Positions 25,659 to 45,543 of a DNA stretch of 64,000 bases are shown here, one piece after another. Both the position numbers and the translations under genes were made by a program. Source of the DNA: a virus (taxonomy: Duplodnaviria > Caudoviricetes); the IMG/VR virus record IMGVR_UViG_3300028242_000036, positions 8,222 through 72,221 of that record; one strand, 5' to 3'. Positions within the stretch are counted from its first letter, which is position 1. Each line of letters opens with the position of its first letter. The notes beneath the pieces are model-generated. The model saw only the letters and a list, made by a program, of their open reading frames with translations. It was not told where the DNA came from and searched no databases.

Positions 25659-26582
25659 TTAATGTGCGTTCTTATCTGCTTCGTGAAGTAACATTATATC
25701 CTTATATAAATCCTCACCCCAAAGTTTACGATATTTGTTTAATGTTTTTTCTTCTTTAATAAAATACGGTTGCATATGCCAACGAATAAGAGTTGCAACA
25801 GTTAACGAGCTTATATCATCAGTTCCCCAAAAGAAACTATTATATGAACCTGTATACTGATGGTCGTAATAGTGTGCCTCTTTAGTGGTTTCACCTTTTG
25901 TGTTTTTAAATGTTTTACAGAAAGGTTTGCCACAATCGTGTAACATTGTAGCACATCTTAATGCAACATTATGAAGCTCATAATCCTTTTGATGTGTAGA
26001 AACATAATCCCAAGCTTTATTACAATGTTCACCAAGAGTTAATTGATGATGTGAGTTATGTTGGTCATCAAATTTATAATGATTTAAGAAACCATAAGGT
26101 GTACCATAATATTTTTTATGTGTTTCATCAATATAAATAACTTCAATATCATCCCAACCCTCATACCAATAAGGCACATCGAAATGTCTATACATTCTTT
26201 CAATAACCTCTTCGGGAACTTTTCTATCTCTATAAAATCTGTTATTCTTTAAACACACTTCGTAAGGTGTAGCCATAAAAATACAAATCTTTTCACAAGG
26301 AATTTTATTAAGTTCATTTAAGAAAGCCATACGGCGTTTATAGTTAATATTGGTTGCATCATATATACAATTTTTACCGTTTGTTAAATCCTCTTTAACA
26401 CGGCTATGTAAGGTTTTAAATACCAAATCATTAATATTCTGATTGTTAATATTTCCCGACAGCTCTTCTCTAATAGCATCACTTGCGTGAATATTGGCAT
26501 CGTATTTGTCGGCAAGCTCTTTAGCATAGGTTGATTTACCGCTTGCAGGTAAACCTACGAGCATAATAAATGTAGGTGTCAT
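25659..26582 (-). CDS. Polynucleotide kinase-like AAA + HD domain protein
   Basis: VGLPASGKST, IYDATN..YKRR, HHQLTLGEH, LHDCGKP, HMQPY, HEADKNAH. Confidence 0.85.
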   Translation of the reverse strand: MTPTFIMLVGLPASGKSTYAKELADKYDANIHASDAIREELSGNINNQNINDLVFKTLHSRVKEDLTNGKNCIYDATNINYKRRMAFLNELNKIPCEKICIFMATPYEVCLKNNRFYRDRKVPEEVIERMYRHFDVPYWYEGWDDIEVIYIDETHKKYYGTPYGFLNHYKFDDQHNSHHQLTLGEHCNKAWDYVSTHQKDYELHNVALRCATMLHDCGKPFCKTFKNTKGETTKEAHYYDHQYTGSYNSFFWGTDDISSLTVATLIRWHMQPYFIKEEKTLNKYRKLWGEDLYKDIMLLHEADKNAH

Positions 26583-31007: not shown

Positions 31008-32477
31008 TTACTCACTTTCTACAATTTCCTGTGCCTCTTCCATATCGGCTTCAGTAGCACTATCCTTTACAATTCCTTCGAGAACCTTAAAGGTGAAATT
31101 CTTATGCTTATAAGCAGTAAACTTAGGTCTGTTTTCAATTCTTACAACTACACCCTCACGCCAATGGGTCTTGCCAATGGGGTCAACACCATCATAATAA
31201 TATTCTGCTATATCTTTTACAAATTCGCCAGCTTCTATGGTAATGGGTTCACCCATATCTGTATAAAATACATCATTAGGAATAATAAATCTTTTAAGCA
31301 TAGGTACAACCTTAACACCCATCTGTTCACAACGATACTTCATATAATCATAAGGGTATTCAACTACCTCACCATCTTCATTGGTCATAGTCATACGATA
31401 TACATAAATATCTGACTGAGGTTCACAACGACCAAGATTATATCCACCATTCTTATCGTTCCAACCATTAGGTTCACAACCATAACTAAATATAGTTTCA
31501 TCACCATACTTCTTAACAAATTCCTTATCGTTAAGCTTCTTATTACTTACCGTAGGCATAATAGGTGTGCCTGTATCTGTAAATCCAACTACCTCATAGA
31601 ATACCTCTTCGCCCTTATGTAACTTGCCTACAAACTTATTGTGGTGCTGTTCTCTAAATGAGTTATTACCATAATAGCCACCGTCATAGCTTTCAAGAAC
31701 AGTTCTTCTTGTACCTGATACATAATCCCAATCGTAAATAGGAGTTGCTCGCTTTATAATCCAATCATAGATTTTAGTATCCCAAGGCATCATTTTGCCA
31801 CCATTCTGTTCTTCGTACTTCTTAGCTCCCTCTGTAAACCACTTTTCAAAAGGAGTCTTGTATTTATAACCCTTAAATACAGGCAGATAACCTGTTCTCT
31901 GTGAAGTACCGTGTAGCTTCAGTGTAATTTCAACAATGTCTCCTGCCTTAAAAGCGTGTAGATTATATGCAAGCTGTGCAGTGTCAATATGCTCTTCAAA
32001 ATAAGGAGAGATAACCACTTTCCTTCTCTTGTTTGAGTTGCCTGTTGAATAACTATTGCTTCTATGATTTGTCTTAGGAATATACTTTTCACAAATCAGT
32101 ACACCATTAAGAGTTGTAATTGTATCACCCTCATTAAGTGTCTTAATATCAACATAATCAGCAAGGCTTTCAAGTGGCATAAACAAACCGTCTGACTGTT
32201 CACCACGAAGCTTCAGAGCCTTAATGTTCCTCTTTTCGGGGTCAAGATAACCACCAACATTATTACCATTTTCGTCTTTTCTTCGTACAAGATTATGCTT
32301 ATTTGCAAAGTCCTCACTGAGCTTACCATCTACAGGGAAATATACACCTAACTGATTTTCGGTATAATCAAGGCTTACAATAACATTGTTACCAAAACAT
32401 TCACCACAAAGCAAACGGTCAGCGTTGTGATGGGGTCTTACATTTCTTAATCTTGTAATATATCCACAATATGCCAT
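31008..32477 (-). CDS. RNA ligase (Rnl2/DRB0094-like)
   Basis: N-terminal HHNADRL..., KLHGTS adenylation motif, FYEVVG, IYVY, REGVVVR, KHKNFTFKVLE. Confidence 0.8.
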   Translation of the reverse strand: MAYCGYITRLRNVRPHHNADRLLCGECFGNNVIVSLDYTENQLGVYFPVDGKLSEDFANKHNLVRRKDENGNNVGGYLDPEKRNIKALKLRGEQSDGLFMPLESLADYVDIKTLNEGDTITTLNGVLICEKYIPKTNHRSNSYSTGNSNKRRKVVISPYFEEHIDTAQLAYNLHAFKAGDIVEITLKLHGTSQRTGYLPVFKGYKYKTPFEKWFTEGAKKYEEQNGGKMMPWDTKIYDWIIKRATPIYDWDYVSGTRRTVLESYDGGYYGNNSFREQHHNKFVGKLHKGEEVFYEVVGFTDTGTPIMPTVSNKKLNDKEFVKKYGDETIFSYGCEPNGWNDKNGGYNLGRCEPQSDIYVYRMTMTNEDGEVVEYPYDYMKYRCEQMGVKVVPMLKRFIIPNDVFYTDMGEPITIEAGEFVKDIAEYYYDGVDPIGKTHWREGVVVRIENRPKFTAYKHKNFTFKVLEGIVKDSATEADMEEAQEIVESE

Positions 32478-37830: not shown

Positions 37831-39372
37831 TTATACAACTGTACGAAGTGCCTCTTCAACAGCCTTATATCTTTCAGAATTAAGTTCCTTAACTAATGCC
37901 TTATAAGGGTCAAGCTCACCATTCAGCACAAGCTTCATAATGTTTGCAGAGAAACCACTAACAAGTGCTACACCCATATCATTTTGCTTTACAGGAATTG
38001 TACCTGTTCTTGAAGCAAGATTCCAAAAGATAAGTCTCGGAAGTTTATAACCATACTGAGCATACTTATTTGCAATAACATCAAAGAGTGTTGCACTAAC
38101 ACGACCACGACCATTAGTTGTTGCACAACTGTCAAATTCCATATCTGAAAGAATAAGAACATTCTGAGGAATTTCATCCTGTGTCATATGGTTATTGATT
38201 GCTGTCTTTAAAATAAGGTCAAACACAGCTTCAATATTTGTATTTGCCACCTCATTGTGCTTTAATGCAATTTCAAGCTTATCGTGTAAAGAACTTGCAT
38301 TTGTAAAATCAACCAACTGTGGTCTATTACTAAATGTAATATACTTATCCTTAAACTCTCCACTACATCTCTCACCACAATAAATAGCAAGAGCATTTGC
38401 AACCTCTAAAGCAGTTGTAGAAGAATTACTATCAACTGGTGTCATCATAGAACCTGAACCATCGGCAACAACGATTGTGTCTTTAATATTGCCAATATCT
38501 TTAAGTGATTTCCACATCTGTTCAAGTGCTTCGTCATAAGAGCCTACTCTACTGCCCCAATAACCTCTGCTATACTTATGAACTACATCGTGTGGGAAAA
38601 GTACACTTGCATTAATTTTGGTTTCACCCTTTTTGAGACTTTCGAGATATGCTCTTCTTCTCTCTTCATCATTACGCATAAAGGCATTTGAATACTTGAT
38701 ATTTGCCTTTGAGGGAACAGTAGAATAATCAATGTTTTCCCATTCCTTTGCAGACATCTTACATTCAACAACATCAAGATACTTTCTAAGAGCAGAAAGG
38801 GTCTTACGATACCTTCTTGCATCCCAATCTAAACTGTTTCTAATGAGTGTAGCTTTTCTCTTAGTGTCTTTTGAACTTGCATTTTCACTCGGCATCCACT
38901 TTGCAAGAAGTGAAATAGGCTTGTCTTCACGCATATTCATCTTGTCAAGAGCTAACTGAGTTTTAATGCTTACTAATGCTTCATTAACAACTTCTACATT
39001 GCCACATTCAATAAGCGTAATAAGATTATCCCATCTTGAATATTCAGGAATAAGCTTGATTACTGCAATGGCAATATCAGTATGCTGTTCGGCAAGATAA
39101 TTCATAATTACTCTGAATGTTCTTCTTTCGCCAAGACCTTCTCTTACATCTGAAGCATAGAAAAGCCACTTAACTGCAAGCATTGGATTTTCATAATAAG
39201 CATCAATAAACTTATTGATAATTTCCTGCTCACTTGCTTTTCTTAAACTTGCAACTGCAAAGTTTAAATCAAGAAGGTTCTTACCTGTTGTAGCATAACC
39301 TACTGCACCATTTTCTGTAATGGAAATTCGATTATCCATTTCGTTCTTCATTGCTGACATAAAATTACTCAT
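37831..39372 (-). CDS. TROVE/Ro60-like + vWA domain protein (DUF2828 type)
   Basis: TENGA, DVREGLGER, SLLAKWMP, YRKTL, IDYSTVP, LFPHDVV, vWA MIDAS VADGSGSM, TNIEAVF, LSDMEFD, IFWNL, LVSGFS; start MSNF after GAGG. Confidence 0.85.
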   Translation of the reverse strand: MSNFMSAMKNEMDNRISITENGAVGYATTGKNLLDLNFAVASLRKASEQEIINKFIDAYYENPMLAVKWLFYASDVREGLGERRTFRVIMNYLAEQHTDIAIAVIKLIPEYSRWDNLITLIECGNVEVVNEALVSIKTQLALDKMNMREDKPISLLAKWMPSENASSKDTKRKATLIRNSLDWDARRYRKTLSALRKYLDVVECKMSAKEWENIDYSTVPSKANIKYSNAFMRNDEERRRAYLESLKKGETKINASVLFPHDVVHKYSRGYWGSRVGSYDEALEQMWKSLKDIGNIKDTIVVADGSGSMMTPVDSNSSTTALEVANALAIYCGERCSGEFKDKYITFSNRPQLVDFTNASSLHDKLEIALKHNEVANTNIEAVFDLILKTAINNHMTQDEIPQNVLILSDMEFDSCATTNGRGRVSATLFDVIANKYAQYGYKLPRLIFWNLASRTGTIPVKQNDMGVALVSGFSANIMKLVLNGELDPYKALVKELNSERYKAVEEALRTVV

Positions 39373-39429
39373 TTTTAATAACCTCACTTTGAATTTTAAA
39401 TTTTAATTTTAATATATATTTAAAATTCC

Positions 39430-39491
39430 AAGGCTCAATTTTGCATTACAGATTAGCAGTCTGTCCCAAAAGATTTTGCTGTACGAGCCTT
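39430..39491 (-). ncRNA. ACAGCAA-stem RNA copy 1; cargo is a Ser(GCU) anticodon stem-loop
   Basis: AAGGCTC-GTACAGCAAA...ACAGA-CTGCTAA-TCTGT...GAGCCTT. Confidence 0.75.
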
Positions 39492-39512
39492 AGAAATTAT
39501 TTTAAAAAATAC

Positions 39513-39581
39513 AAGTCGCAATTTTTGTATAAGTTTAAATTTCAAGTTTAATCTCATAGTATGATTTGCTGTATGCGACTT
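39513..39581 (-). ncRNA. ACAGCAA-stem RNA copy 2; cargo is a Ser(UGA) anticodon stem-loop
   Basis: AAGTCGCA-TACAGCAAA...TATGAG-A-TTAAA-CTTGAAA-TTTAA-A-CTTATA...TGCGACTT. Confidence 0.75.
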
Positions 39582-39605
39582 ATGTATATTAAAGAAAGGA
39601 GAGAC

Positions 39606-39667
39606 AAGACACATTGAAAAGAAAGCCACCATCGTCTATTAGTAAATTTATTTGCTGTATGTGTCTT
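39606..39667 (-). ncRNA. ACAGCAA-stem RNA copy 3; short cargo
   Basis: AAGACACA-TACAGCAAA...TGTGTCTT. Confidence 0.7.
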
Positions 39668-39692: not shown

Positions 39693-39766
39693 TGGAGCAA
39701 CATAAGGTACTTGAAACCTTATTTTCTGATTGGAAATCAAATGTGTTACCGTTACACCAATGTTGC
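39693..39766 (-). tRNA. tRNA-Gly(TCC), encoded CCA
   Basis: GCAACAT acceptor, TTTGA-TTTCCAA-TCAGA anticodon arm, AAGGT-TTCAAGT-ACCTT T arm. Confidence 0.88.
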
Positions 39767-39776
39767 ATATAATAAC

Positions 39777-39906
39777 AAGACTCTATCAATAAACAATAGT
39801 CGCTGTCTTACCCCTTGACTACTACCTCATTCGGCAGGTAGGAATCGAACCTACGAATGGCGACTTGGCTTCTGTTATTTGAAAAAAGAATTGCTGTTAG
39901 AGTCTT
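39777..39906 (-). ncRNA. ACAGCAA-stem RNA copy 4; cargo is a circularly permuted tRNA (YrlA-like)
   Basis: AAGACTCTA-ACAGCAA...GCCAA-GTCGC, T arm GTAGG-TTCGATT-CCTAC, closed acceptor CTGCC-GAATGA-GGTAG, D arm GTC-AAGGGGTAA-GAC, GCGAC...TAGAGTCTT. Confidence 0.8.
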
Positions 39907-39913
39907 ATTTATT

Positions 39914-39989
<76 letters not shown>

Positions 39990-40149
39990 ATATATAATTA
40001 AAAAATTTTATAACATTAGGGTGTTATATACCCAACACTTCTCTTACAAGCTCTATCGGCAATTCCTGTCCGTAAGCAAGTGCAAGAATAATTAAACTTC
40101 TCTTTAACTTAGACATTTACATTCCTCCTTATTTTATTTTATTGATTAA

Positions 40150-40662: not shown

Positions 40663-40725
40663 AAGACACATTTCAGGTTTTATAGTTTAAAAGACTATTC
40701 CTAAATAATTTGCTGTATGTGTCTT
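40663..40725 (-). ncRNA. ACAGCAA-stem RNA copy 5; cargo is a Lys(UUU) anticodon stem-loop
   Basis: AAGACACA-TACAGCAAA...TTAGG-A-ATAGT-CTTTTAA-ACTAT-AAAA-CCTGA...TGTGTCTT. Confidence 0.78.
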
Positions 40726-40825: not shown

Positions 40826-40858
40826 AGTGTTACTCCCTTCTTTTAAATTTCTATATTC

Positions 40859-40998
40859 AAGATACATTTTTATTGATTTATCGTTGCTCTACCGACTGAG
40901 CTATCCTGCCATTGGGGGCAGGAGCAGGACTCGAACCTACGACCTACGGCTCTATGTTGCTTATCATTAAAAATTTACTTATTTGCTGTATGTATCTT
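40859..40998 (-). ncRNA. ACAGCAA-stem RNA copy 6; cargo is a circularly permuted tRNA with CCA in the acceptor loop
   Basis: AAGATACA-TACAGCAAA...T arm GTAGG-TTCGAGT-CCTGC, TCCTGCC-CCCAAT-GGCAGGA, D arm GCTC-AGTCGGTA-GAGC...TGTATCTT. Confidence 0.82.
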
Positions 40999-41129: not shown

Positions 41130-41285
41130 AAGGCTCTAATTCTAAACTCTATTCAACACGGCTTTAAAAACTATCAACGATACAGGTATCGTCAGATTTG
41201 GAAACTCACCGTAAAAGTTTTGTTCAACCCAATTCTTTTTAAATCTTTATTTGATAATTTCACTATCGTTTGCTGTGTGAGCCTT
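41130..41285 (-). ncRNA. ACAGCAA-stem RNA copy 7; long (~125 nt) cargo
   Basis: AAGGCTC-ACACAGCAAA...GAGCCTT; internal ACGATA-CCTG-TATCGT hairpin. Confidence 0.68.
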
Positions 41286-41294
41286 TAATTTTTC

Positions 41295-41369
41295 AAGACA
41301 CATTGCATTATAACTTTTTTATTCCTCTAATAAATGTCTATAATTTCTAATGTTTGCTGTATGTGCCTT
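41295..41369 (-). ncRNA. ACAGCAA-stem RNA copy 8; extended hairpin cargo
   Basis: AAGGCACA-TACAGCAAA...TTTAT-TAGAGGA-ATAAA...TGTGTCTT (one G.U pair). Confidence 0.72.
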
Positions 41370-41541
41370 TCGTGTCTTCGTCAGACTAAAATTTTCAACT
41401 GATATTAAGCTAAAGGACTTTCACCTTTAGGAATGGTGGTTGGGTTTGTGTATGCATCCACTTCCAACGGTCTACTGATGACCAATCGCTAATCTGTTAC
41501 ACCATTTTTTCATATCTTGTACTTTTAAGAGATTTTCTTTT

Positions 41542-41624
41542 TGGTCGATGCAATTAGGAATCGAACCTAATCCTTGCGACTCACTCTGAGTCACTGTGCT
41601 ACCCATCCTCTACACTATACATCT
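41542..41624 (-). tRNA. tRNA-like gene with non-canonical anticodon arm (undetermined isotype)
   Basis: D arm GTGT-AGAGGATGGGTA-GCAC, GTGACTC-AGAGT-GAGTCGC, TTAGG-TTCGATT-CCTAA, ends ACCA. Confidence 0.7.
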
Positions 41625-41752
41625 AAATCCCTGCTACACCAAACTCACTATTGTACGGATAGTATTGAGCTTAGTTTGTACATTGTAGCATACTCGATAT
41701 GGCTTTGTACTCACTACTTAATTTGTTCTGTAATCTCTCGACTACATTTACT

Positions 41753-41781
41753 ATTATAATATTATTTTGTTGTTTTGTCAA
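41753..41781 (-). promoter_or_regulatory. Sigma-A promoter P3 of the RNA island
   Basis: TTGACA-17-TATAAT. Confidence 0.85.
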
Positions 41782-41853
41782 GAGGTTTTTGAAACTTTTT
41801 TGATTTTTTCTTAAATCTTTTTGTTCGGCTTTCTTCGACCACTGACATACTCT

Positions 41854-41882
41854 ATTATAATATTATTTTATTCATTTGTCAA
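41854..41882 (-). promoter_or_regulatory. Sigma-A promoter P2 of the RNA island
   Basis: TTGACA-17-TATAAT. Confidence 0.85.
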
Positions 41883-42013
41883 GGGGTTTTTGAAATATTT
41901 TTCAAAAAGTTGGCTACCGATTTGAGGAAAGACTATACAGACACTTATATCCAACAGTTCGACAGCTCAATGCTTTCCTACAATCAAACTGTTCCCTCCA
42001 CCTGACATATTCT

Positions 42014-42042
42014 ATTATAATATTATTTTCTTGTTTTGTCAA
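42014..42042 (-). promoter_or_regulatory. Sigma-A promoter P1 of the RNA island
   Basis: TTGACA-17-TATAAT. Confidence 0.85.
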
Positions 42043-43133: not shown

Positions 43134-44204
43134 TTAATTTAGATATATGCTTTCGACACCTACCTTGATTAATTCTTGTAAGCTACCTACCCTTGCATTG
43201 ACAACTAAATGTCCGTCATTACCTGTTGGTACATAAGGTTCACAATAATTAAATTTACCTGCTATTTGAGCTACTTCATATCTGTCAAGTTCTTTTGCAC
43301 CCTTTTCTTTCATCATTGAATATGCTTCGTGTAAAATACCACTATGATACAAATTGGTTACAGTAATATAAGGATTGCCTACCCACTCCCTAATTACACG
43401 CACTCTTGCTTGTAATCCCTTTTGTTCCATAGGTACATCTATTTTCTTGCCACCAGCAGTTTTAAATACATAAACACTTTCAGGGAATCTTAATGTTCTT
43501 ACTCCTAAACCGTTTGTTAATATCTTGTTAGGGTCTTTTCTGCTTTGAGCAGTACCGTTATTTAAATAATATGCCTGTTGAGATATAGTTAGTTTAAGTA
43601 GTTCAAAACATCTTTCAGAACAACCAAATATCTTTCTTACATTCCCTTTTTTATCAGTAGCAACAATACCTTTCTCTTTAAAATCAATATCTGTCTCTTT
43701 AAGATTTATTAATTCATCAGGCTTTAAACCATTAAATAGTAATTCTAACATACACCTATCATTAAAATTAACCAACTTTTCTTCTATCTCTCTTACCTCT
43801 TGATAGGTTAGATACTTATTTTCCATAGCATTTTTATTCACATACTGTGAATAGTCTGTGATTATTTCAAATGGATTTAATGTTGTTAAATTGTGTTCAA
43901 TACAGTAATTTATATACTTTTTAATATATGATATACCTGTTCTTACAGTAGCCACCGATTTATAACTAAATTCATTTTCTATTAGTTCATTAACTTCGGC
44001 TAAATTAAAATTATATACACTTTTCCCAATTAGTTTTTCAAACTTATCAACCTTTAATAAAACACCCTTCAATGTTTTTGCTGTACTTGGATTTAAAGTA
44101 TTTAAAAAATCTTCTTTGTTGGCACTATCTATCTCAAATTTTCTATCTGCTAATGCCACTAAACCATTTCGGCATACTTTAACCTCTTTCTTTTTGTTAT
44201 TCAT
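43134..44204 (-). CDS. Tyrosine-recombinase-fold protein lacking catalytic Arg residues; candidate repressor
   Basis: DRCMLELLFNGLKPDELINLK (K at catalytic R) and ITVTNLYHSG (for HxLRHS). Confidence 0.72.
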   Translation of the reverse strand: MNNKKKEVKVCRNGLVALADRKFEIDSANKEDFLNTLNPSTAKTLKGVLLKVDKFEKLIGKSVYNFNLAEVNELIENEFSYKSVATVRTGISYIKKYINYCIEHNLTTLNPFEIITDYSQYVNKNAMENKYLTYQEVREIEEKLVNFNDRCMLELLFNGLKPDELINLKETDIDFKEKGIVATDKKGNVRKIFGCSERCFELLKLTISQQAYYLNNGTAQSRKDPNKILTNGLGVRTLRFPESVYVFKTAGGKKIDVPMEQKGLQARVRVIREWVGNPYITVTNLYHSGILHEAYSMMKEKGAKELDRYEVAQIAGKFNYCEPYVPTGNDGHLVVNARVGSLQELIKVGVESIYLN

Positions 44205-45543
44205 TCTCCCTCTCTCCTATAAACAAATTATATAATTTATTTTTTGCAGATTTATTTAAGTTATTAGTAAGATTAGATATATAAATATTATTCTGATTAT
44301 CTCTGCCAAAATCATAAGAAGAAAACACTTTAGATACTATTTGTATCCAATCATTCACTCCGTATAATTTTCTACTCATACCTATATATGCCATAAACAT
44401 ATATTTATTGGTTGAAAAATCATTCTTGCTTAAAAACTGACTAATGTGATTCAAGAAATTTACTATCCAATCTGCTACTGATTTTGCCATAGATTTATTT
44501 GTTAATAAGTCACTATAATTATCTGCAATAGCTGTGGCAAGCAAACTCTTTTTAGTATAACCGTCATATCTTAACTCTTGTTCAGTATTTTTTATCTTAT
44601 CTGATAATTCAAACAAAGGACTATCTATAATTAAATCAACTACTAAATTTTCTATTTTACTTTTGTCTAAAGTATTAACATACTCTTTTTTAATAGGTGT
44701 CTGCTTATTAATTTGCACCATAAAATCTTGTGCTTTTTGTTCTGTGAAATTTGTTATTGTAAGTTTCCAATTAAATTGAAGTTCAGGGTTTCTAATAATG
44801 GCTAATTGATTTGCTGTCTTTCTGTGAAAACCATCAAATATATCCATTTCACCACTAATGATTTTTAATTCACCAACAACACCATCGGTTGATGAAAATT
44901 CAATTTCATCATCACCGTTTCTCAAAATATTTATTTTGATTTCGTCTGCAAATTGTCTACCACTCAAAAGATTATCTGAAATTTCTTGTATCTTTTTTGT
45001 ATTAACATTAATTCTTTTAATACCAAACATATCTATTTTTGCATTTCTTTGGGTGTTAAAGTTATAAATAATATCGTTAGCTCTGTCAATAAGTGCCAAA
45101 TCTTGTGCCGATATAATTCCTGTATAATGACCATCTGACACTTTTAACATATTTGAAAAAGTATAAGGATACCCCTCTTCTTTTTCAGGGGTATAACTAT
45201 GTTTAGAAAAATATTGTTGTTCGGATAAAGTAAAATAATCCTTAACATCTAATTTAGTTATTTCTTCTTCTAAACCAATAGATTCATCACTTCTATCTTT
45301 AAGTCTTAATGCTTCTTGAAATCCTTCTGTAAAAACATAAAGCACAAATAGTTCTTTATCGTTTTTAATATCTAATGTTTCCAACTCTAATCTTCTGTTA
45401 AGTATTTTAATAGGATAACTACTCAATAAATTCTTTTCTGTAAATTTAGATTTTAGATATTCTTTGACTTGTCTATTTGTGCCATATTTATTTATCATTT
45501 GATTTAGTACATTAATTAAATTTGCGTTGCTTTGATTTAACAT
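44197..45543 (-). CDS. DndB/DGQHR-type ParB-like protein
   Basis: YNFNTQRNAK, DIFDGFHRKTA, FMVQINKQTP. Confidence 0.7.
   Translation of the reverse strand: MLNQSNANLINVLNQMINKYGTNRQVKEYLKSKFTEKNLLSSYPIKILNRRLELETLDIKNDKELFVLYVFTEGFQEALRLKDRSDESIGLEEEITKLDVKDYFTLSEQQYFSKHSYTPEKEEGYPYTFSNMLKVSDGHYTGIISAQDLALIDRANDIIYNFNTQRNAKIDMFGIKRINVNTKKIQEISDNLLSGRQFADEIKINILRNGDDEIEFSSTDGVVGELKIISGEMDIFDGFHRKTANQLAIIRNPELQFNWKLTITNFTEQKAQDFMVQINKQTPIKKEYVNTLDKSKIENLVVDLIIDSPLFELSDKIKNTEQELRYDGYTKKSLLATAIADNYSDLLTNKSMAKSVADWIVNFLNHISQFLSKNDFSTNKYMFMAYIGMSRKLYGVNDWIQIVSKVFSSYDFGRDNQNNIYISNLTNNLNKSAKNKLYNLFIGERENE

What the first reader, a model, noticed from the sequence alone, without database searches (positions are those of the whole stretch)
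39777..39906. Second permuted tRNA whose opened anticodon loop retains GCCAA: mimic of a nicked tRNA-Gly
Seen: copy 4 reads GCCAA-GTCGC-CATTC, T arm GTAGG-TTCGATT-CCTAC, CTGCC-GAATGA-GGTAG (5-bp acceptor hairpin, no CCA), D arm GTC-AAGGGGTAA-GAC, A-GCGAC-T. GCGAC/GTCGC forms a complete anticodon stem, and GCC-AA sits exactly where positions 34-38 of tRNA-Gly(GCC) would, but in an internal loop joined to the handle. Inference: it resembles a tRNA broken just 5' of the wobble base, the lesion made by PrrC-type nucleases, and may engage repair or quality-control factors.
Basis: partly seen in the sequence, partly recalled or inferred. Interest (0 to 1): 0.75.

Follow-up and report, generated by a model that had tools for sequence, protein, structure and literature searches.

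The report
Permuted glycine-tRNA mimic, phage Ro60-like particle
This 130-base phage RNA is a glycine-tRNA look-alike, rearranged and fused to a docking "handle" for a Ro60-like protein encoded next door; it keeps the glycine anticodon letters in distantly related phages, so it is a new variant of the known tRNA-mimicking Y RNAs, not a chance fold.

Summary
On the minus strand, 39906-39777 folds as terminal stem + ACAGCAA, then GCCAA, a 5-6-bp anticodon stem, CAUUC, T arm, closed 5-bp acceptor hairpin, D arm and the return strand.

It is one of eight "handle" RNAs in a tRNA array just upstream of a DUF2828/DUF7788 gene. The model of that protein matches only Ro60/TROVE structures at the top. 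The architecture is that of YrlA-type Y RNAs, a known class, but the handle and the protein family differ.

New here: the GCCAA is not chance.
- Searches that did not specify it recovered the same module with NCCAA (mostly GCCAA, some ACCAA) in at least four lineages. Their partner proteins are 31-55% identical, and stems covary while linkers diverge.
- One lineage is the normal-order form: a complete tRNA-Gly(GCC)-like gene ending U-CCA, with the handle inserted between loop positions 33 and 34.
- ARAGORN calls the de-permuted sequences tRNA-Gly(GCC).

The "nicked tRNA-Gly mimic that engages repair factors" reading is partly supported: identity and break site fit, function is untested, and the chain is continuous. 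No PNPase gene was found among the window ORFs scanned. This scan has already reported the handle/DUF2828 system on many other genomes. Verdict: new variant of a known kind.

The parts
39777..39906 (-). Y-e: the whole handle-tagged, circularly permuted tRNA-Gly(GCC)-like RNA (130 nt; a G follows at 39776, as after all 8 copies)
   Evidence: Sequence; MFE fold; YrlA model 27.7 bits; own model R1 86.6 bits (this sequence was in the seed alignment)
39898..39906 (-). Handle, 5' strand AAGACUCUA; pairs with 39777-39785
   Evidence: 9 bp in the MFE fold; 5 of the 7 modelled handle pairs change on both sides across homologs
39891..39897 (-). Invariant ACAGCAA motif, presumed docking site for the DUF2828 protein
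   Evidence: 8 copies in the window against 0.18 expected; invariant in alignment A2; travels with DUF2828 genes
39870..39890 (-). Variable 5' linker (UUCUUUUUUCAAAUAACAGAA)
   Evidence: Cannot be aligned between lineages
39865..39869 (-). GCCAA: equivalent of tRNA positions 34-38 (anticodon GCC + A37 A38); C35, C36 and A37 predicted mostly unpaired (0.77-0.95), G34 intermediate (0.43), A38 mostly paired with U32 (0.22)
   Evidence: NCCAA conserved in at least 4 lineages; unpaired probabilities; background frequency of GCCAA 6e-4 to 1e-3 per position
39860..39864 (-). Anticodon-stem 3' strand GUCGC (39-43); pairs with GCGAC at 39799-39803
   Evidence: all 5 pairs change on both sides across homologs
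39855..39859 (-). Variable loop CAUUC (44-48). It was specified in both scan patterns, so its presence in the recovered relatives is by construction
39838..39854 (-). T arm GUAGG-UUCGAUU-CCUAC
39822..39837 (-). Acceptor stem closed into a hairpin, CUGCC-GAAUGA-GGUAG (5 bp; no discriminator, no CCA)
   Evidence: The 3' strand CUGCC equals the first five bases of CUGCCGC-U-CCA in the normal-order relatives
39804..39821 (-). U8-A9, D arm GUC-AAGGGGUAA-GAC, A26
39799..39803 (-). Anticodon-stem 5' strand GCGAC (27-31), followed by U32 A33
39777..39798 (-). 3' linker UAUUGUUUAUUGA and handle 3' strand UAGAGUCUU
37831..39387 (-). DUF2828 + DUF7788 protein (518 aa), a structural Ro60/TROVE + vWA look-alike; presumed protein partner
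   Evidence: Pfam 2.4e-36 and 4.2e-47; phrog_850 1.4e-135; the top 13 Foldseek PDB hits are all Ro60/TROVE
39693..39766 (-). tRNA-Gly(UCC), 10 nt downstream of Y-e; its 5' processing would define the 3' side of Y-e
39914..39989 (-). tRNA-Met(CAU), 7 nt upstream of Y-e
40859..40998 (-). Y-c: sibling handle RNA with a second permuted tRNA body (YrlA model 42.7 bits)
39430..39667 (-). Y-f (39667-39606), Y-g (39581-39513), Y-h (39491-39430): sibling handle RNAs. Y-g and Y-h carry anticodon-arm-like hairpins (CUUGAAA, CUGCUAA)
40663..40725 (-). Y-d: sibling handle RNA with a Lys(UUU)-like anticodon hairpin (loop CUUUUAA)
41130..41369 (-). Y-a (41369-41295) and Y-b (41285-41130): sibling handle RNAs
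41753..42042 (-). Three perfect sigma-70 promoters (12/12) upstream of the RNA/tRNA array; no minus-strand terminator inside the array

Best explanation
Y-e is a non-coding RNA of the Y-RNA kind, specifically a YrlA-like tRNA mimic. It has two modules. (1) A handle: a covarying 7-9-bp terminal stem followed by ACAGCAA (invariant; predicted unpaired in most relatives, less clearly in Y-e itself). All eight RNAs of this array share it, and it most likely docks the Ro60-like DUF2828/DUF7788 protein encoded directly downstream. (2) A cargo: a tRNA-Gly(GCC) body in circularly permuted order. The natural tRNA ends are closed into a hairpin, and the anticodon loop is opened between positions 33 and 34, where the handle is attached. 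The RNA is probably cut out of a long promoter-driven transcript by the tRNA-processing enzymes that release the flanking tRNA-Met and tRNA-Gly. In the particle, the Ro60-like ring would sit at the anticodon end of an L-shaped tRNA-Gly look-alike. The conserved N-C-C-A-A is displayed there mostly single-stranded, for a factor that reads the glycine anticodon or the tRNA body. Shown: the fold, its covariation, its tRNA-Gly origin, the conservation of NCCAA, co-occurrence of the handle with DUF2828, and the Ro60-like fold of the protein model. Inferred: physical binding, processing, and the identity of the recruited factor. Candidates for that factor are GlyRS, an anticodon nuclease, or the phage RNA ligase and kinase-phosphatase.
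For: - Fold and class: the MFE fold equals the described structure. The Rfam YrlA model aligns end to end. 47 further T arm / closed acceptor / D arm modules lie downstream of ACAGCAA in other viral contigs.
- Handle: 8 copies against 0.18 expected.
- Partner: DUF2828 is found in 23 of 30 RNA-bearing viral records, in 9 of 9 that are at least 90% complete, and in 0 of 14 control genomes. The gene lies next to the RNAs here and in L001, L161, L199 and L221. The model of the protein matches Ro60/TROVE structures at ranks 1-13 (E 2e-9 to 1e-4, full length). A record whose Gly-type RNA lacks ACAGCAA encodes a classical TROVE protein instead.
- tRNA-Gly origin and conservation: scans that did not specify NCCAA or the stem recovered four groups. 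(a) A permuted clade with GCCAA in 18 contigs, ACCAA in 8 and AUCAA in 1. (b) L199 with GCCAA. (c) A normal-order group of more than 25 contigs reading GCGGCAG...GCAGC-CC-[48-nt handle insert]-GCCAA-GCUGC-CAUUC-T arm-CUGCCGC-U-CCA. (d) The window.
- ARAGORN calls de-permuted Y-e, L076 and L199, and de-inserted L178 and L161, tRNA-Gly(GCC).
- The partner proteins of these lineages are only 31-55% identical.
- Covariation: 96.9% of cells paired, 22 of 27 pairs with changes on both sides, 0 of 500 shuffles as high, 33-43% paired when partners are slid.
- Linkers next to NCCAA vary while it stays. The GCCAA background frequency is about 1e-3.
- Transcription: three 12/12 promoters upstream and no terminator inside the array.
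Against: - No expression, processing or binding data exist for this RNA or this protein.
- The Rfam YrlA score is well below the gathering threshold (27.7 against 69 bits). The published Ro60-binding motif GNCGAAN0-1G is absent.
- The protein model has only moderate confidence (pLDDT 68, pTM 0.55, TM 0.34-0.50 to Ro60). Sequence-only searches against solved structures are not significant.
- The covariation alignment was fitted to the model structure, which leans towards it.
- NCCAA is not universal: L258 reads GUCCA in a shifted register, and single contigs read AUCAA or GCCAU.
- L001, the viral-contig locus with the closest DUF2828 protein (51%), shows no Gly-type module in the stretch fetched.
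- Both recovery patterns required the CAUUC variable loop, so all recovered relatives may descend from one tRNA-Gly-derived ancestor. Conservation of NCCAA then shows constraint, not repeated invention.
Confidence: 0.72

Rival explanations
1. Nicked-tRNA mimic. The module imitates a tRNA-Gly cut 5' of the wobble base. As a product or substrate look-alike it engages the phage healing-and-sealing enzymes, a host sensor of nicked tRNA, or the Ro60-like protein's own damaged-RNA binding site, and so regulates tRNA repair.
For: - The discontinuity is exactly between positions 33 and 34 in all Gly-type lineages.
- The phage encodes an RNA ligase (phrog_968, 2e-67) and a polynucleotide kinase-HD protein.
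- In Salmonella, Rsr and YrlA are encoded in the rtcBA repair operon (same paper).
Against: - There are no free ends at the 'nick': both sides continue into the handle, so there is no 2',3'-cyclic phosphate or 5'-OH for a ligase, kinase or CARF sensor to read.
- Most other family members place the junction in the anticodon stem (about 29/30) and keep an intact 7-nt loop. The break site is therefore not a family-wide signature of loop cleavage.
- No RtcR, RtcB or PNPase was found among the window ORFs scanned.
Confidence: 0.15
2. Decoy or sponge. Together with its siblings, which display Ser(GCU)-, Ser(UGA)- and Lys(UUU)-like anticodon hairpins, Y-e soaks up a host tRNA-targeting defence (anticodon nuclease or tRNA-modifying toxin). 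The Ro60-like protein stabilises or delivers the decoys.
For: - The array carries several canonical 7-nt anticodon-like loops on the same handle.
- C35 and C36 stay invariant while position 34 toggles between G and A in two lineages, as expected if a reader of the Gly anticodon is the target.
- The phage carries its own tRNAs and RNA repair genes.
Against: - In Y-e the loop is open and only its 3' half is conserved (position 33 is A, C or U), so it is a poor substrate mimic for a nuclease that needs an intact loop.
- I know of no anticodon nuclease specific for tRNA-Gly, and none was found here.
- The hypothesis is purely inferential.
Confidence: 0.08
3. Precursor of a working tRNA-Gly. The permuted gene would be processed (circularised, or ligated at the handle, and opened at the acceptor) into a functional tRNA, as with the permuted tRNA genes of the red alga Cyanidioschyzon merolae. 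In the normal-order relatives the handle insert would be a new kind of intron.
For: - The normal-order relatives have a full Gly identity set and an encoded CCA.
- ARAGORN accepts them as intron-bearing tRNAs.
- The phage has an RNA ligase.
Against: - Y-e has only 5 acceptor pairs, a 6-nt closing loop, no discriminator and no CCA, so no functional acceptor end can be released.
- Position 33 is A, not the universal U.
- The insert carries a conserved protein-binding handle that also occurs on RNAs with no tRNA body.
- ARAGORN's canonical 37/38 intron placement gives non-conserved anticodons: AUU in L178, AUA in L161.
Confidence: 0.03
4. Decaying relic. A rearranged tRNA-Gly pseudogene that happens to lie inside a handle RNA, with GCCAA retained by chance or recent descent.
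For: The acceptor is shortened and position 33 is not U. Thermodynamic support alone is modest (z = -2.39).
Against: Compensatory changes in every helix, and retention of NCCAA next to fully diverged linkers, across lineages whose partner proteins are 31-55% identical.
Confidence: 0.02

Closest known systems
YrlA-type Y RNAs with Ro60/Rsr (Rfam RF02553; Chen et al. 2014, PMC4201824; Wang et al. 2018, 10.1101/312249)
   Same: A terminal protein-binding stem plus a tRNA-like domain in the order T arm, closed acceptor stem-loop, D arm, anticodon-stem equivalent. Encoded next to the gene of a ring-shaped TROVE+vWA-type protein. Also found in phages. The Rfam model aligns to Y-e end to end.
   Different: - The score is below Rfam's threshold (27.7 against 69 bits).
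- The handle carries ACAGCAA, not GNCGAAN0-1G.
- The partner is DUF2828/DUF7788, not Pfam TROVE (none in this record).
- Published YrlA 'lacks the anticodon loop', whereas Y-e keeps a conserved 3' half of a Gly loop.
- Normal-order relatives with a free CCA end exist.
Thermus phage phiLo Ro60 with Yrl1/Yrl2 (PMC12135203; PDB 9KOP, 9L5Y)
   Same: A phage-encoded Ro60-type ring with phage-encoded partner RNAs upstream of its gene. These are the best structural matches to the window protein's model (E 2e-9 and 7e-8).
   Different: phiLo Ro60 is a classical TROVE protein, and its RNAs were recognised by a CGAA motif. The tRNA mentions returned from that paper showed no tRNA-Gly body in those RNAs. 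Sequence identity to the window protein is about 16%.
Class I RNAs of dictyostelid social amoebae (Rfam RF01414; PMC7919456; pattern printed in PMC5054030)
   Same: A short terminal stem, then an unpaired conserved motif ending ...UACAGCAA next to the 5' strand, then a variable interior, then the 3' strand followed by (U)G. Y-e's 11-mer UCUAACAGCAA matches CCUUACAGCAA at 9 of 11 positions. The four best RF01414 hits in this phage all fall on handle RNAs.
   Different: The scores are far below threshold (about 13 against 41.5 bits, E 0.5-1.1), and Y-e itself is not among the hits. Class I RNAs are 42-65 nt and no tRNA body is described for them. Their reported direct binder is an RRM protein. 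Whether amoebae pair them with a DUF2828 protein was not tested here.
Circularly permuted tRNA genes of Cyanidioschyzon merolae (from my own knowledge: Soma et al. 2007, Science)
   Same: The 3' half of a tRNA is encoded upstream of the 5' half, with the natural ends joined by a short intervening sequence.
   Different: Those genes mature into functional tRNAs through a circular intermediate. Y-e has a truncated 5-bp acceptor without discriminator or CCA, and it carries a protein handle at the junction, so it cannot yield a working tRNA.
Engineered circularly permuted 'nicked tRNA' ligand of RtcR (Chen and Wolin 2023, PMC10159003)
   Same: A tRNA body with closed acceptor ends and an opening in the anticodon loop.
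   Different: That RNA is synthetic, with free ends (2',3'-cyclic phosphate) at the nick. In Y-e the opening is bridged by the handle.

Membership tests
YrlA / bacterial Y RNA (RF02553) | tRNA-like domain in the order T arm, closed acceptor stem-loop, D arm, enclosed by an anticodon-stem equivalent and a terminal stem | tested here: met
   MFE fold; cmscan alignment; parser; covariation
YrlA / bacterial Y RNA (RF02553) | Score at or above Rfam's gathering threshold (69 bits) | tested here: not met
   27.7 bits, E 0.0063 in a 4.5-kb search
YrlA / bacterial Y RNA (RF02553) | Ro60-binding helix with the conserved GNCGAAN0-1G motif (Chen 2014) | tested here: not met
   The handle reads AAGACUCUA-ACAGCAA; no GNCGAA motif
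YrlA / bacterial Y RNA (RF02553) | Encoded beside a TROVE-domain Ro60 ortholog | tested here: inconclusive
   No PF05731 match in the 72-kb record. The adjacent gene is DUF2828/DUF7788, and its model matches Ro60 structures at ranks 1-13
YrlA / bacterial Y RNA (RF02553) | Bound by the Ro60-type protein in vivo | not testable with these tools
   Needs immunoprecipitation or gel-shift
ACAGCAA-handle RNAs of DUF2828 loci (found in none of the papers searched; noted repeatedly by this scan) | Covarying 7-9-bp terminal stem with unpaired ACAGCAA 0-3 nt after its 5' strand | tested here: met
ACAGCAA-handle RNAs of DUF2828 loci (found in none of the papers searched; noted repeatedly by this scan) | Co-occurrence with a DUF2828/DUF7788 gene | tested here: met
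   The gene starts 43 nt downstream of the array's last handle RNA. 23 of 30 records, and 9 of 9 near-complete ones, against 0 of 14 controls. Adjacent in L001, L161, L199 and L221
Canonical tRNA-Gly(GCC) | Open 7-bp acceptor stem with discriminator and CCA; continuous 7-nt anticodon loop with U33 | tested here: not met
   5-bp closed acceptor, no CCA, loop interrupted between 33 and 34, A at position 33. Not called by ARAGORN or Rfam tRNA
Canonical tRNA-Gly(GCC) | Cloverleaf with anticodon GCC once the two halves are put in normal order | tested here: met
   ARAGORN calls tRNA-Gly(GCC) for de-permuted Y-e, L076 and L199 and for de-inserted L178 and L161. I chose the junction, so the anticodon call follows from that choice; the cloverleaf call does not
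Permuted tRNA genes that mature into tRNAs (C. merolae type) | 3' half upstream of 5' half | tested here: met
Permuted tRNA genes that mature into tRNAs (C. merolae type) | Recoverable full acceptor stem with discriminator (and CCA) across the joining sequence | tested here: not met
   Only pairs 3-7/66-70 remain, joined by GAAUGA
Dictyostelid Class I RNA (RF01414) | Score at or above the gathering threshold (41.5 bits) | tested here: not met
   No hit on Y-e. Siblings Y-c, Y-f, Y-g and Y-d score 12.4-13.8 bits
Dictyostelid Class I RNA (RF01414) | Terminal stem plus adjacent unpaired motif CCUUACAGCAA | tested here: inconclusive
   9 of 11 positions match in Y-e; the pattern is printed in PMC5054030. 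The shared layout is suggestive, but homology is not shown

The most novel reading that the evidence does not exclude
The glycine module is a dedicated adaptor kept across very different phages. It would place a Ro60-like ring at the anticodon end of a tRNA-Gly look-alike, so that a glycine-anticodon reader (GlyRS, a T-box leader, or a tRNA-Gly-directed host nuclease or toxin) is captured, blocked or redirected. The normal-order relatives, which keep G1:C72, C2:G71, G3:C70, U73, C35, C36 and CCA, would then be chargeable tRNAs that carry a built-in protein-docking arm. That would be a class of protein-tethered tRNA not described so far. It would also be a living intermediate showing how YrlA-type Y RNAs arose from tRNAs: handle insertion into the anticodon loop, followed by circular permutation.
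Probability: 0.2. Interest if true: 0.85.

Novelty: new variant of a known kind. Interest (0 to 1): 0.62.

Why it matters
Ro60 and its Y RNAs are conserved from bacteria to humans and are a major autoantigen, yet what the tRNA-like half of bacterial Y RNAs recruits is still unknown.

This element adds three things:
- The tRNA-like cargo has an identifiable parent, tRNA-Gly(GCC).
- The anticodon nucleotides that matter for glycine identity (C35, C36) stay fixed even though the RNA cannot decode. That points to a specific, testable class of partners.
- Permuted and normal-order versions of the same module coexist in related phages. This gives a concrete route from a tRNA to a YrlA-type Y RNA.

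It also belongs to a second, widespread Ro60-like protein family (DUF2828, more than 700 phage records). That family has its own RNA handle, which none of the papers searched here describes. The handle resembles the enigmatic Class I RNAs of social amoebae.

Because the same phage carries tRNA genes, an RNA ligase and a kinase-phosphatase, the particle may be part of the phage-host contest over tRNAs.

Tried and rejected
- blastn of the RNA cluster against 50,697 phage records found only ordinary tRNA similarities and no homolog of Y-e. Homologs came only from degenerate pattern scans.
- Sequence-only searches of the DUF2828 protein, and of an 8-sequence profile, against solved structures gave nothing significant (TROVE at E 0.6-0.8). 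The relationship to Ro60 rests on the fold comparison.
- Literature searches found no paper linking DUF2828 to Y RNAs. [quoted passage not shown]
- Unconstrained folding did not recover the cloverleaf for L199, L258, L178 or L161, so unpaired probabilities for NCCAA are informative only for the window and the clade.
- I looked for conserved pairing of GCCAA with the 3' linker. Three pairs are possible in Y-e after a 2-nt bulge, but not in the clade, so I rejected it.
- ARAGORN's default intron placement (37/38) in the normal-order relatives gives AUU in L178 and AUA in L161. It is not conserved, so I rejected it in favour of the 33/34 junction.
- The idea that NCCAA is general to all handle-tagged tRNA bodies was rejected: 0 of 47 parsed modules have CCAA directly before the parsed closing stem (Y-e itself is parsed with a 6-bp stem), so NCCAA is specific to the Gly-type subfamily.
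- The idea that Y-e derives from a tandem tRNA-His/tRNA-Gln pair (those tandems matched the first pattern) was rejected once the normal-order tRNA-Gly relatives and an ordinary tRNA-Gly(UCC) with the same D arm and CAUUC loop (L204) were seen.
- PNPase, RtcB and a classical TROVE gene were looked for among the window's ORFs (and TROVE in the whole record) and not found.
Full report
**Observation.** The element lies on the minus strand, 39906-39777, inside an array of seven tRNA genes. Read 5' to 3' it is: AAGACUCUA / ACAGCAA / a 21-nt linker / GCCAA / GUCGC / CAUUC / GUAGG-UUCGAUU-CCUAC / CUGCC-GAAUGA-GGUAG / UA / GUC-AAGGGGUAA-GAC / A / GCGAC / UAUUGUUUAUUGA / UAGAGUCUU. The unconstrained minimum-energy fold gives exactly that structure: a terminal 9-bp stem, a 6-bp anticodon-like stem, a T arm, a closed 5-bp acceptor hairpin and a 3-bp D stem (-33.3 kcal/mol, z = -2.39). 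ARAGORN and Rfam's tRNA model do not call it. Rfam's YrlA ("Y RNA-like") model aligns to it from end to end at 27.7 bits (E 0.006), and to a second element at 40855-40968 at 42.7 bits. Both are below the 69-bit gathering score.

**Context in the window.** The motif stem-ACAGCAA occurs eight times on the minus strand between 39430 and 41369 (8 matches against 0.18 expected). Each copy opens an RNA that is closed by the complementary strand followed by G.
- Two copies carry permuted tRNA bodies (Y-c and this one, Y-e). Others carry anticodon-arm-like hairpins.
- Three perfect sigma-70 promoters precede the array, and there is no minus-strand terminator inside it.
- Y-e lies 7 nt after tRNA-Met and 10 nt before tRNA-Gly(UCC), so tRNA processing would release it. 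This step is inferred.
- The gene that begins 43 nt downstream of the last handle RNA (39387-37831) is DUF2828 + DUF7788 (Pfam 2.4e-36 and 4.2e-47; phrog_850 "RNA-binding protein", 1.4e-135).
- The phage also encodes an RNA ligase (phrog_968, 2e-67) and a polynucleotide kinase-HD protein.
- No PNPase, RtcB or TROVE gene was found among the window ORFs scanned, and no TROVE match anywhere in the 72-kb record.
- The window is part of a 72-kb viral record estimated to be 46% complete.

**The protein partner.** Sequence searches against solved structures were not significant. An AlphaFold2 model built on eight homologs (pLDDT 68, pTM 0.55) shows a helical-repeat region followed by an alpha/beta domain. 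Foldseek's top 13 PDB hits are all Ro60/TROVE proteins aligned over the full length: Thermus phage phiLo Ro60 (2e-9 and 7e-8), D. radiodurans Rsr (2e-7), and frog and human Ro60. vWA domains alone follow below them. DUF2828/DUF7788 is therefore best read as a divergent Ro60-like protein. It is common in phages, with tblastn hits in 709 records.

**The handle travels with this protein.**
- Of 30 viral records that carry such RNAs, 23 encode DUF2828, including all 9 that are at least 90% complete. None of 14 control genomes does.
- L001, the viral-contig locus with the closest protein (51% identity), has three handle RNAs directly after the gene.
- One record whose Gly-type tRNA-like RNA lacks ACAGCAA and instead has CCGAAG encodes a classical TROVE protein about 1.3 kb downstream of that RNA (L131/L156).
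- So there are two handle types, each matched to one of two Ro60-type proteins.

**What is known.** YrlA RNAs consist of a Ro60-binding stem plus a tRNA-like domain with a T arm, a closed acceptor stem-loop and a D arm. They are found next to Ro60 genes in more than 250 bacteria and phages (PMC4201824). The crystal structure shows a close tRNA mimic that "lacks the anticodon loop" (10.1101/312249). What differs here is the handle (ACAGCAA, not GNCGAAN0-1G), the protein family, and the retained anticodon segment.

**Is GCCAA conserved?** I used two scans that specified neither GCCAA nor the adjacent stem. Both did specify the CAUUC variable loop, so CAUUC in the recovered relatives is by construction.
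- Scan 1, in viral contigs: CATTC-N5-TTCGANTCC-N14-40-TAGNCAAG.
- Scan 2, in metagenomes: ACAGCAA-N15-45-CATTC-N5-TTCGANTCC.

They recovered the following.
- **(a) A clade of large phages with the same permuted architecture.** It has other stems (RCUCC/GGAGY, UUCGG/CCGAA, a 7-bp acceptor). It reads GCCAA in 18 contigs, ACCAA in 8 and AUCAA in 1. The linker just upstream varies in sequence and length.
- **(b) L199.** It is permuted, all its stems are different again, and it reads GCCAA. A DUF2828 gene lies 141 nt downstream.
- **(c) L258.** It is permuted and reads GUCCA-ACUGC, which keeps CCA in a shifted register.
- **(d) A normal-order group of more than 25 contigs (the L178 group).** It reads GCGGCAG-UG-GUG-AAGUGGUCAA-CAC-A-GCAGC-CC-[48-nt insert]-GCCAA-GCUGC-CAUUC-GUAGG-UUCGAGU-CCUAC-CUGCCGC-U-CCA. 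The insert is UAUUACAAU-GCGAAAC-GAGGA-GUUUCGC-UA-ACAGCAA-UGUUCAAGGAA. The DUF2828 gene lies about 120 nt downstream. This group has GCCAA in 19 contigs, ACCAA in 6 and GCCAU in 1.
- **(e) Others.** The TROVE-linked L131 has CCCAA. Further fragments have UCCAA or CCCAA.

GCC, ACC, CCC and UCC are all glycine anticodons. Group (d) carries G1:C72, C2:G71, G3:C70, U73 and CCA; from my own knowledge, these are the bacterial glycine identity elements. Its T arm and acceptor 3' strand match Y-e (GUAGG...CCUAC-CUGCC).

ARAGORN calls de-permuted Y-e, L076 and L199, and de-inserted L178 and L161, tRNA-Gly(GCC). It accepts native L178 and L161 as tRNAs with a 46-47-nt intervening sequence. An ordinary tRNA-Gly(UCC) with the same D arm and CAUUC loop is in the data set (L204).

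**Topology.** The handle stem is closed by a loop in group (d) and open in Y-e. The acceptor is open in (d) and closed in Y-e. They are circular permutations of one design, and the handle is attached between loop positions 33 and 34.

**Depth and covariation.**
- The partner proteins of these lineages are 31% (L199) to 51-55% (L161, L221) identical to the window's protein.
- A covariance model built from Y-e and the clade scores the unseeded L258 at 89.7 bits and L199 at 75.7 bits. Other handle-tagged tRNA bodies score 57 bits or less.
- In the resulting alignment, 96.9% of cells pair and 22 of 27 pairs change on both sides. This compares with 0 of 500 shuffles, and with 33-43% pairing when partners are slid. 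The alignment is fitted to the model, which favours the structure.
- GCCAA has a background frequency of about 1e-3 per position, and NCCAA about 4e-3.
- C35, C36 and A37 of GCCAA are predicted mostly unpaired in Y-e (0.77-0.95); G34 is intermediate (0.43) and A38 is mostly paired with U32 (0.22). All five positions are mostly unpaired in the clade.
- Position 32 is always a pyrimidine. Position 33 varies (A, C, U). So only the 3' half of the loop is under constraint.

**Family-wide picture.** Among 47 other handle-tagged tRNA bodies, the usual layout is a 3-bp closing stem (often CGU/ACG) next to a 2-3-bp hairpin with a canonical 7-nt anticodon-like loop (UGU, GUU, GAU, UUU, GAA, GCU, GUC, CAU, UGG, CCA...). 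That amounts to a 5-bp anticodon stem interrupted near positions 29/30. The Gly type is special in opening the loop itself, and NCCAA is specific to it.

**Mechanism.** The best-supported reading is a bipartite adaptor. The handle docks the Ro60-like ring, and the tRNA-Gly-shaped cargo, with its exposed NCCAA, recruits something that recognises tRNA-Gly. Shown: fold, origin, conservation, co-occurrence and the protein's fold class. Inferred: binding, processing and the recruited factor.

It resonates with the finding that a permuted nicked-tRNA mimic binds RtcR (PMC10159003) and with the phage's ligase and kinase. But the RNA has no free ends at the opening. A decoy role against tRNA-targeting defences is possible but has no direct support. 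Maturation into a working tRNA is excluded for Y-e by its truncated acceptor.

**Relation to earlier scan notes.** This scan has already followed up the DUF2828/ACAGCAA-handle system on many other genomes (128 notes in at least 97 genomes), including normal-order tRNAs carrying the handle. I reached the same reading independently. One note's lead, a resemblance to dictyostelid Class I RNAs, holds partly. The printed pattern GTTGRCCTTACAGCAA...GTCAACTG (PMC5054030) has the same layout, and RF01414's four best hits in this phage fall on handle RNAs. But they score only about 13 bits.

**Verdict.** The feature is real and conserved: a new variant of the YrlA/Y-RNA kind. The parts specific to this finding are the tRNA-Gly(GCC) identity, the conserved NCCAA, and the permuted/normal-order pair.

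Noticed in passing
L178:631-742 (-) and about 25 related loci (L116, L161, L169, L174, L181, L182, L186, L212, L218, L221, L266 and others): Normal-order tRNA-Gly(GCC)-like genes with a full Gly identity set and an encoded U-CCA. A 48-nt insert (closed hairpin + UA-ACAGCAA + linker) sits between loop positions 33 and 34, and a DUF2828 gene lies about 120 nt downstream. Several come from human-gut metagenomes. They could in principle be charged with glycine.
   Followed up: partly
L131:2636-2761 (+), the same stretch as L156:76-201: A Gly-type permuted tRNA body (CCCAA-AUCGC-CAUUC...) without ACAGCAA but with CCGAAG on its 3' side, about 1.3 kb upstream of a classical TROVE/Ro60 gene in a phage that has no DUF2828. 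The same cargo therefore appears on both kinds of Ro-type handle.
   Followed up: partly
window 39430-39581 and 40663-40725 (-): Sibling handle RNAs Y-h, Y-g and Y-d display 5-bp stems with canonical 7-nt loops: CUGCUAA (Ser-GCU-like), CUUGAAA (Ser-UGA-like) and CUUUUAA (Lys-UUU-like). L001 has CUGCUAA, CUUGAAA and CUGAUAA on the same handle.
   Followed up: no
Viral loci L011-L129 (table): Family rule: most handle-tagged tRNA bodies have a 3-bp closing stem (often CGU/ACG) next to a short hairpin with an intact anticodon-like loop, so the handle enters the anticodon stem near positions 29/30. Many closed acceptor loops begin with (N)CCA, a trace of the former 3' end.
   Followed up: partly
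window 41400-42042 (-): Three near-identical promoter units (TTGACA-17-TATAAT), each followed by other small structured RNAs. One, around 41542-41624, has a T arm and an ...ACCA-like end, which ARAGORN does not call as a tRNA or tmRNA.
   Followed up: no
window 40024-40116 (-): A 30-codon ORF (MSKLKRSLIILALAYGQELPIELVREVLGI) with a strong AAGGAGG ribosome-binding site, lying between tRNA-Lys and tRNA-Met inside the RNA array.
   Followed up: no
window 25659-26582 and 31008-32477 (-): A polynucleotide kinase (AAA_33/KTI12) fused to an HD phosphohydrolase domain, and an RNA ligase (phrog_968). Together they form an RNA healing-and-sealing kit 6-13 kb from the RNA array.
   Followed up: partly
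window 39512-39666, 40674-40717, 40953-40990 (-): The four best matches of Rfam's Dictyostelium Class I RNA model in this phage fall on handle RNAs (12-14 bits, not significant). The amoebal motif CCUUACAGCAA shares UACAGCAA with the phage handle.
   Followed up: partly
L118:7852-7952 (+); L137/L138 (loci): Other cargo layouts. In L118 the handle replaces the acceptor stem of an otherwise normal-order D arm / anticodon(GAU) arm / T arm body. L137 and L138 carry chimeric multi-arm tRNA-like RNAs without ACAGCAA, in records with no DUF2828 or TROVE match.
   Followed up: no
window 43134-45543 (-): An MrpR-like tyrosine-recombinase-fold protein (PF22822/PF22823) overlapping a DndB-like gene, upstream of the RNA region.
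   Followed up: no
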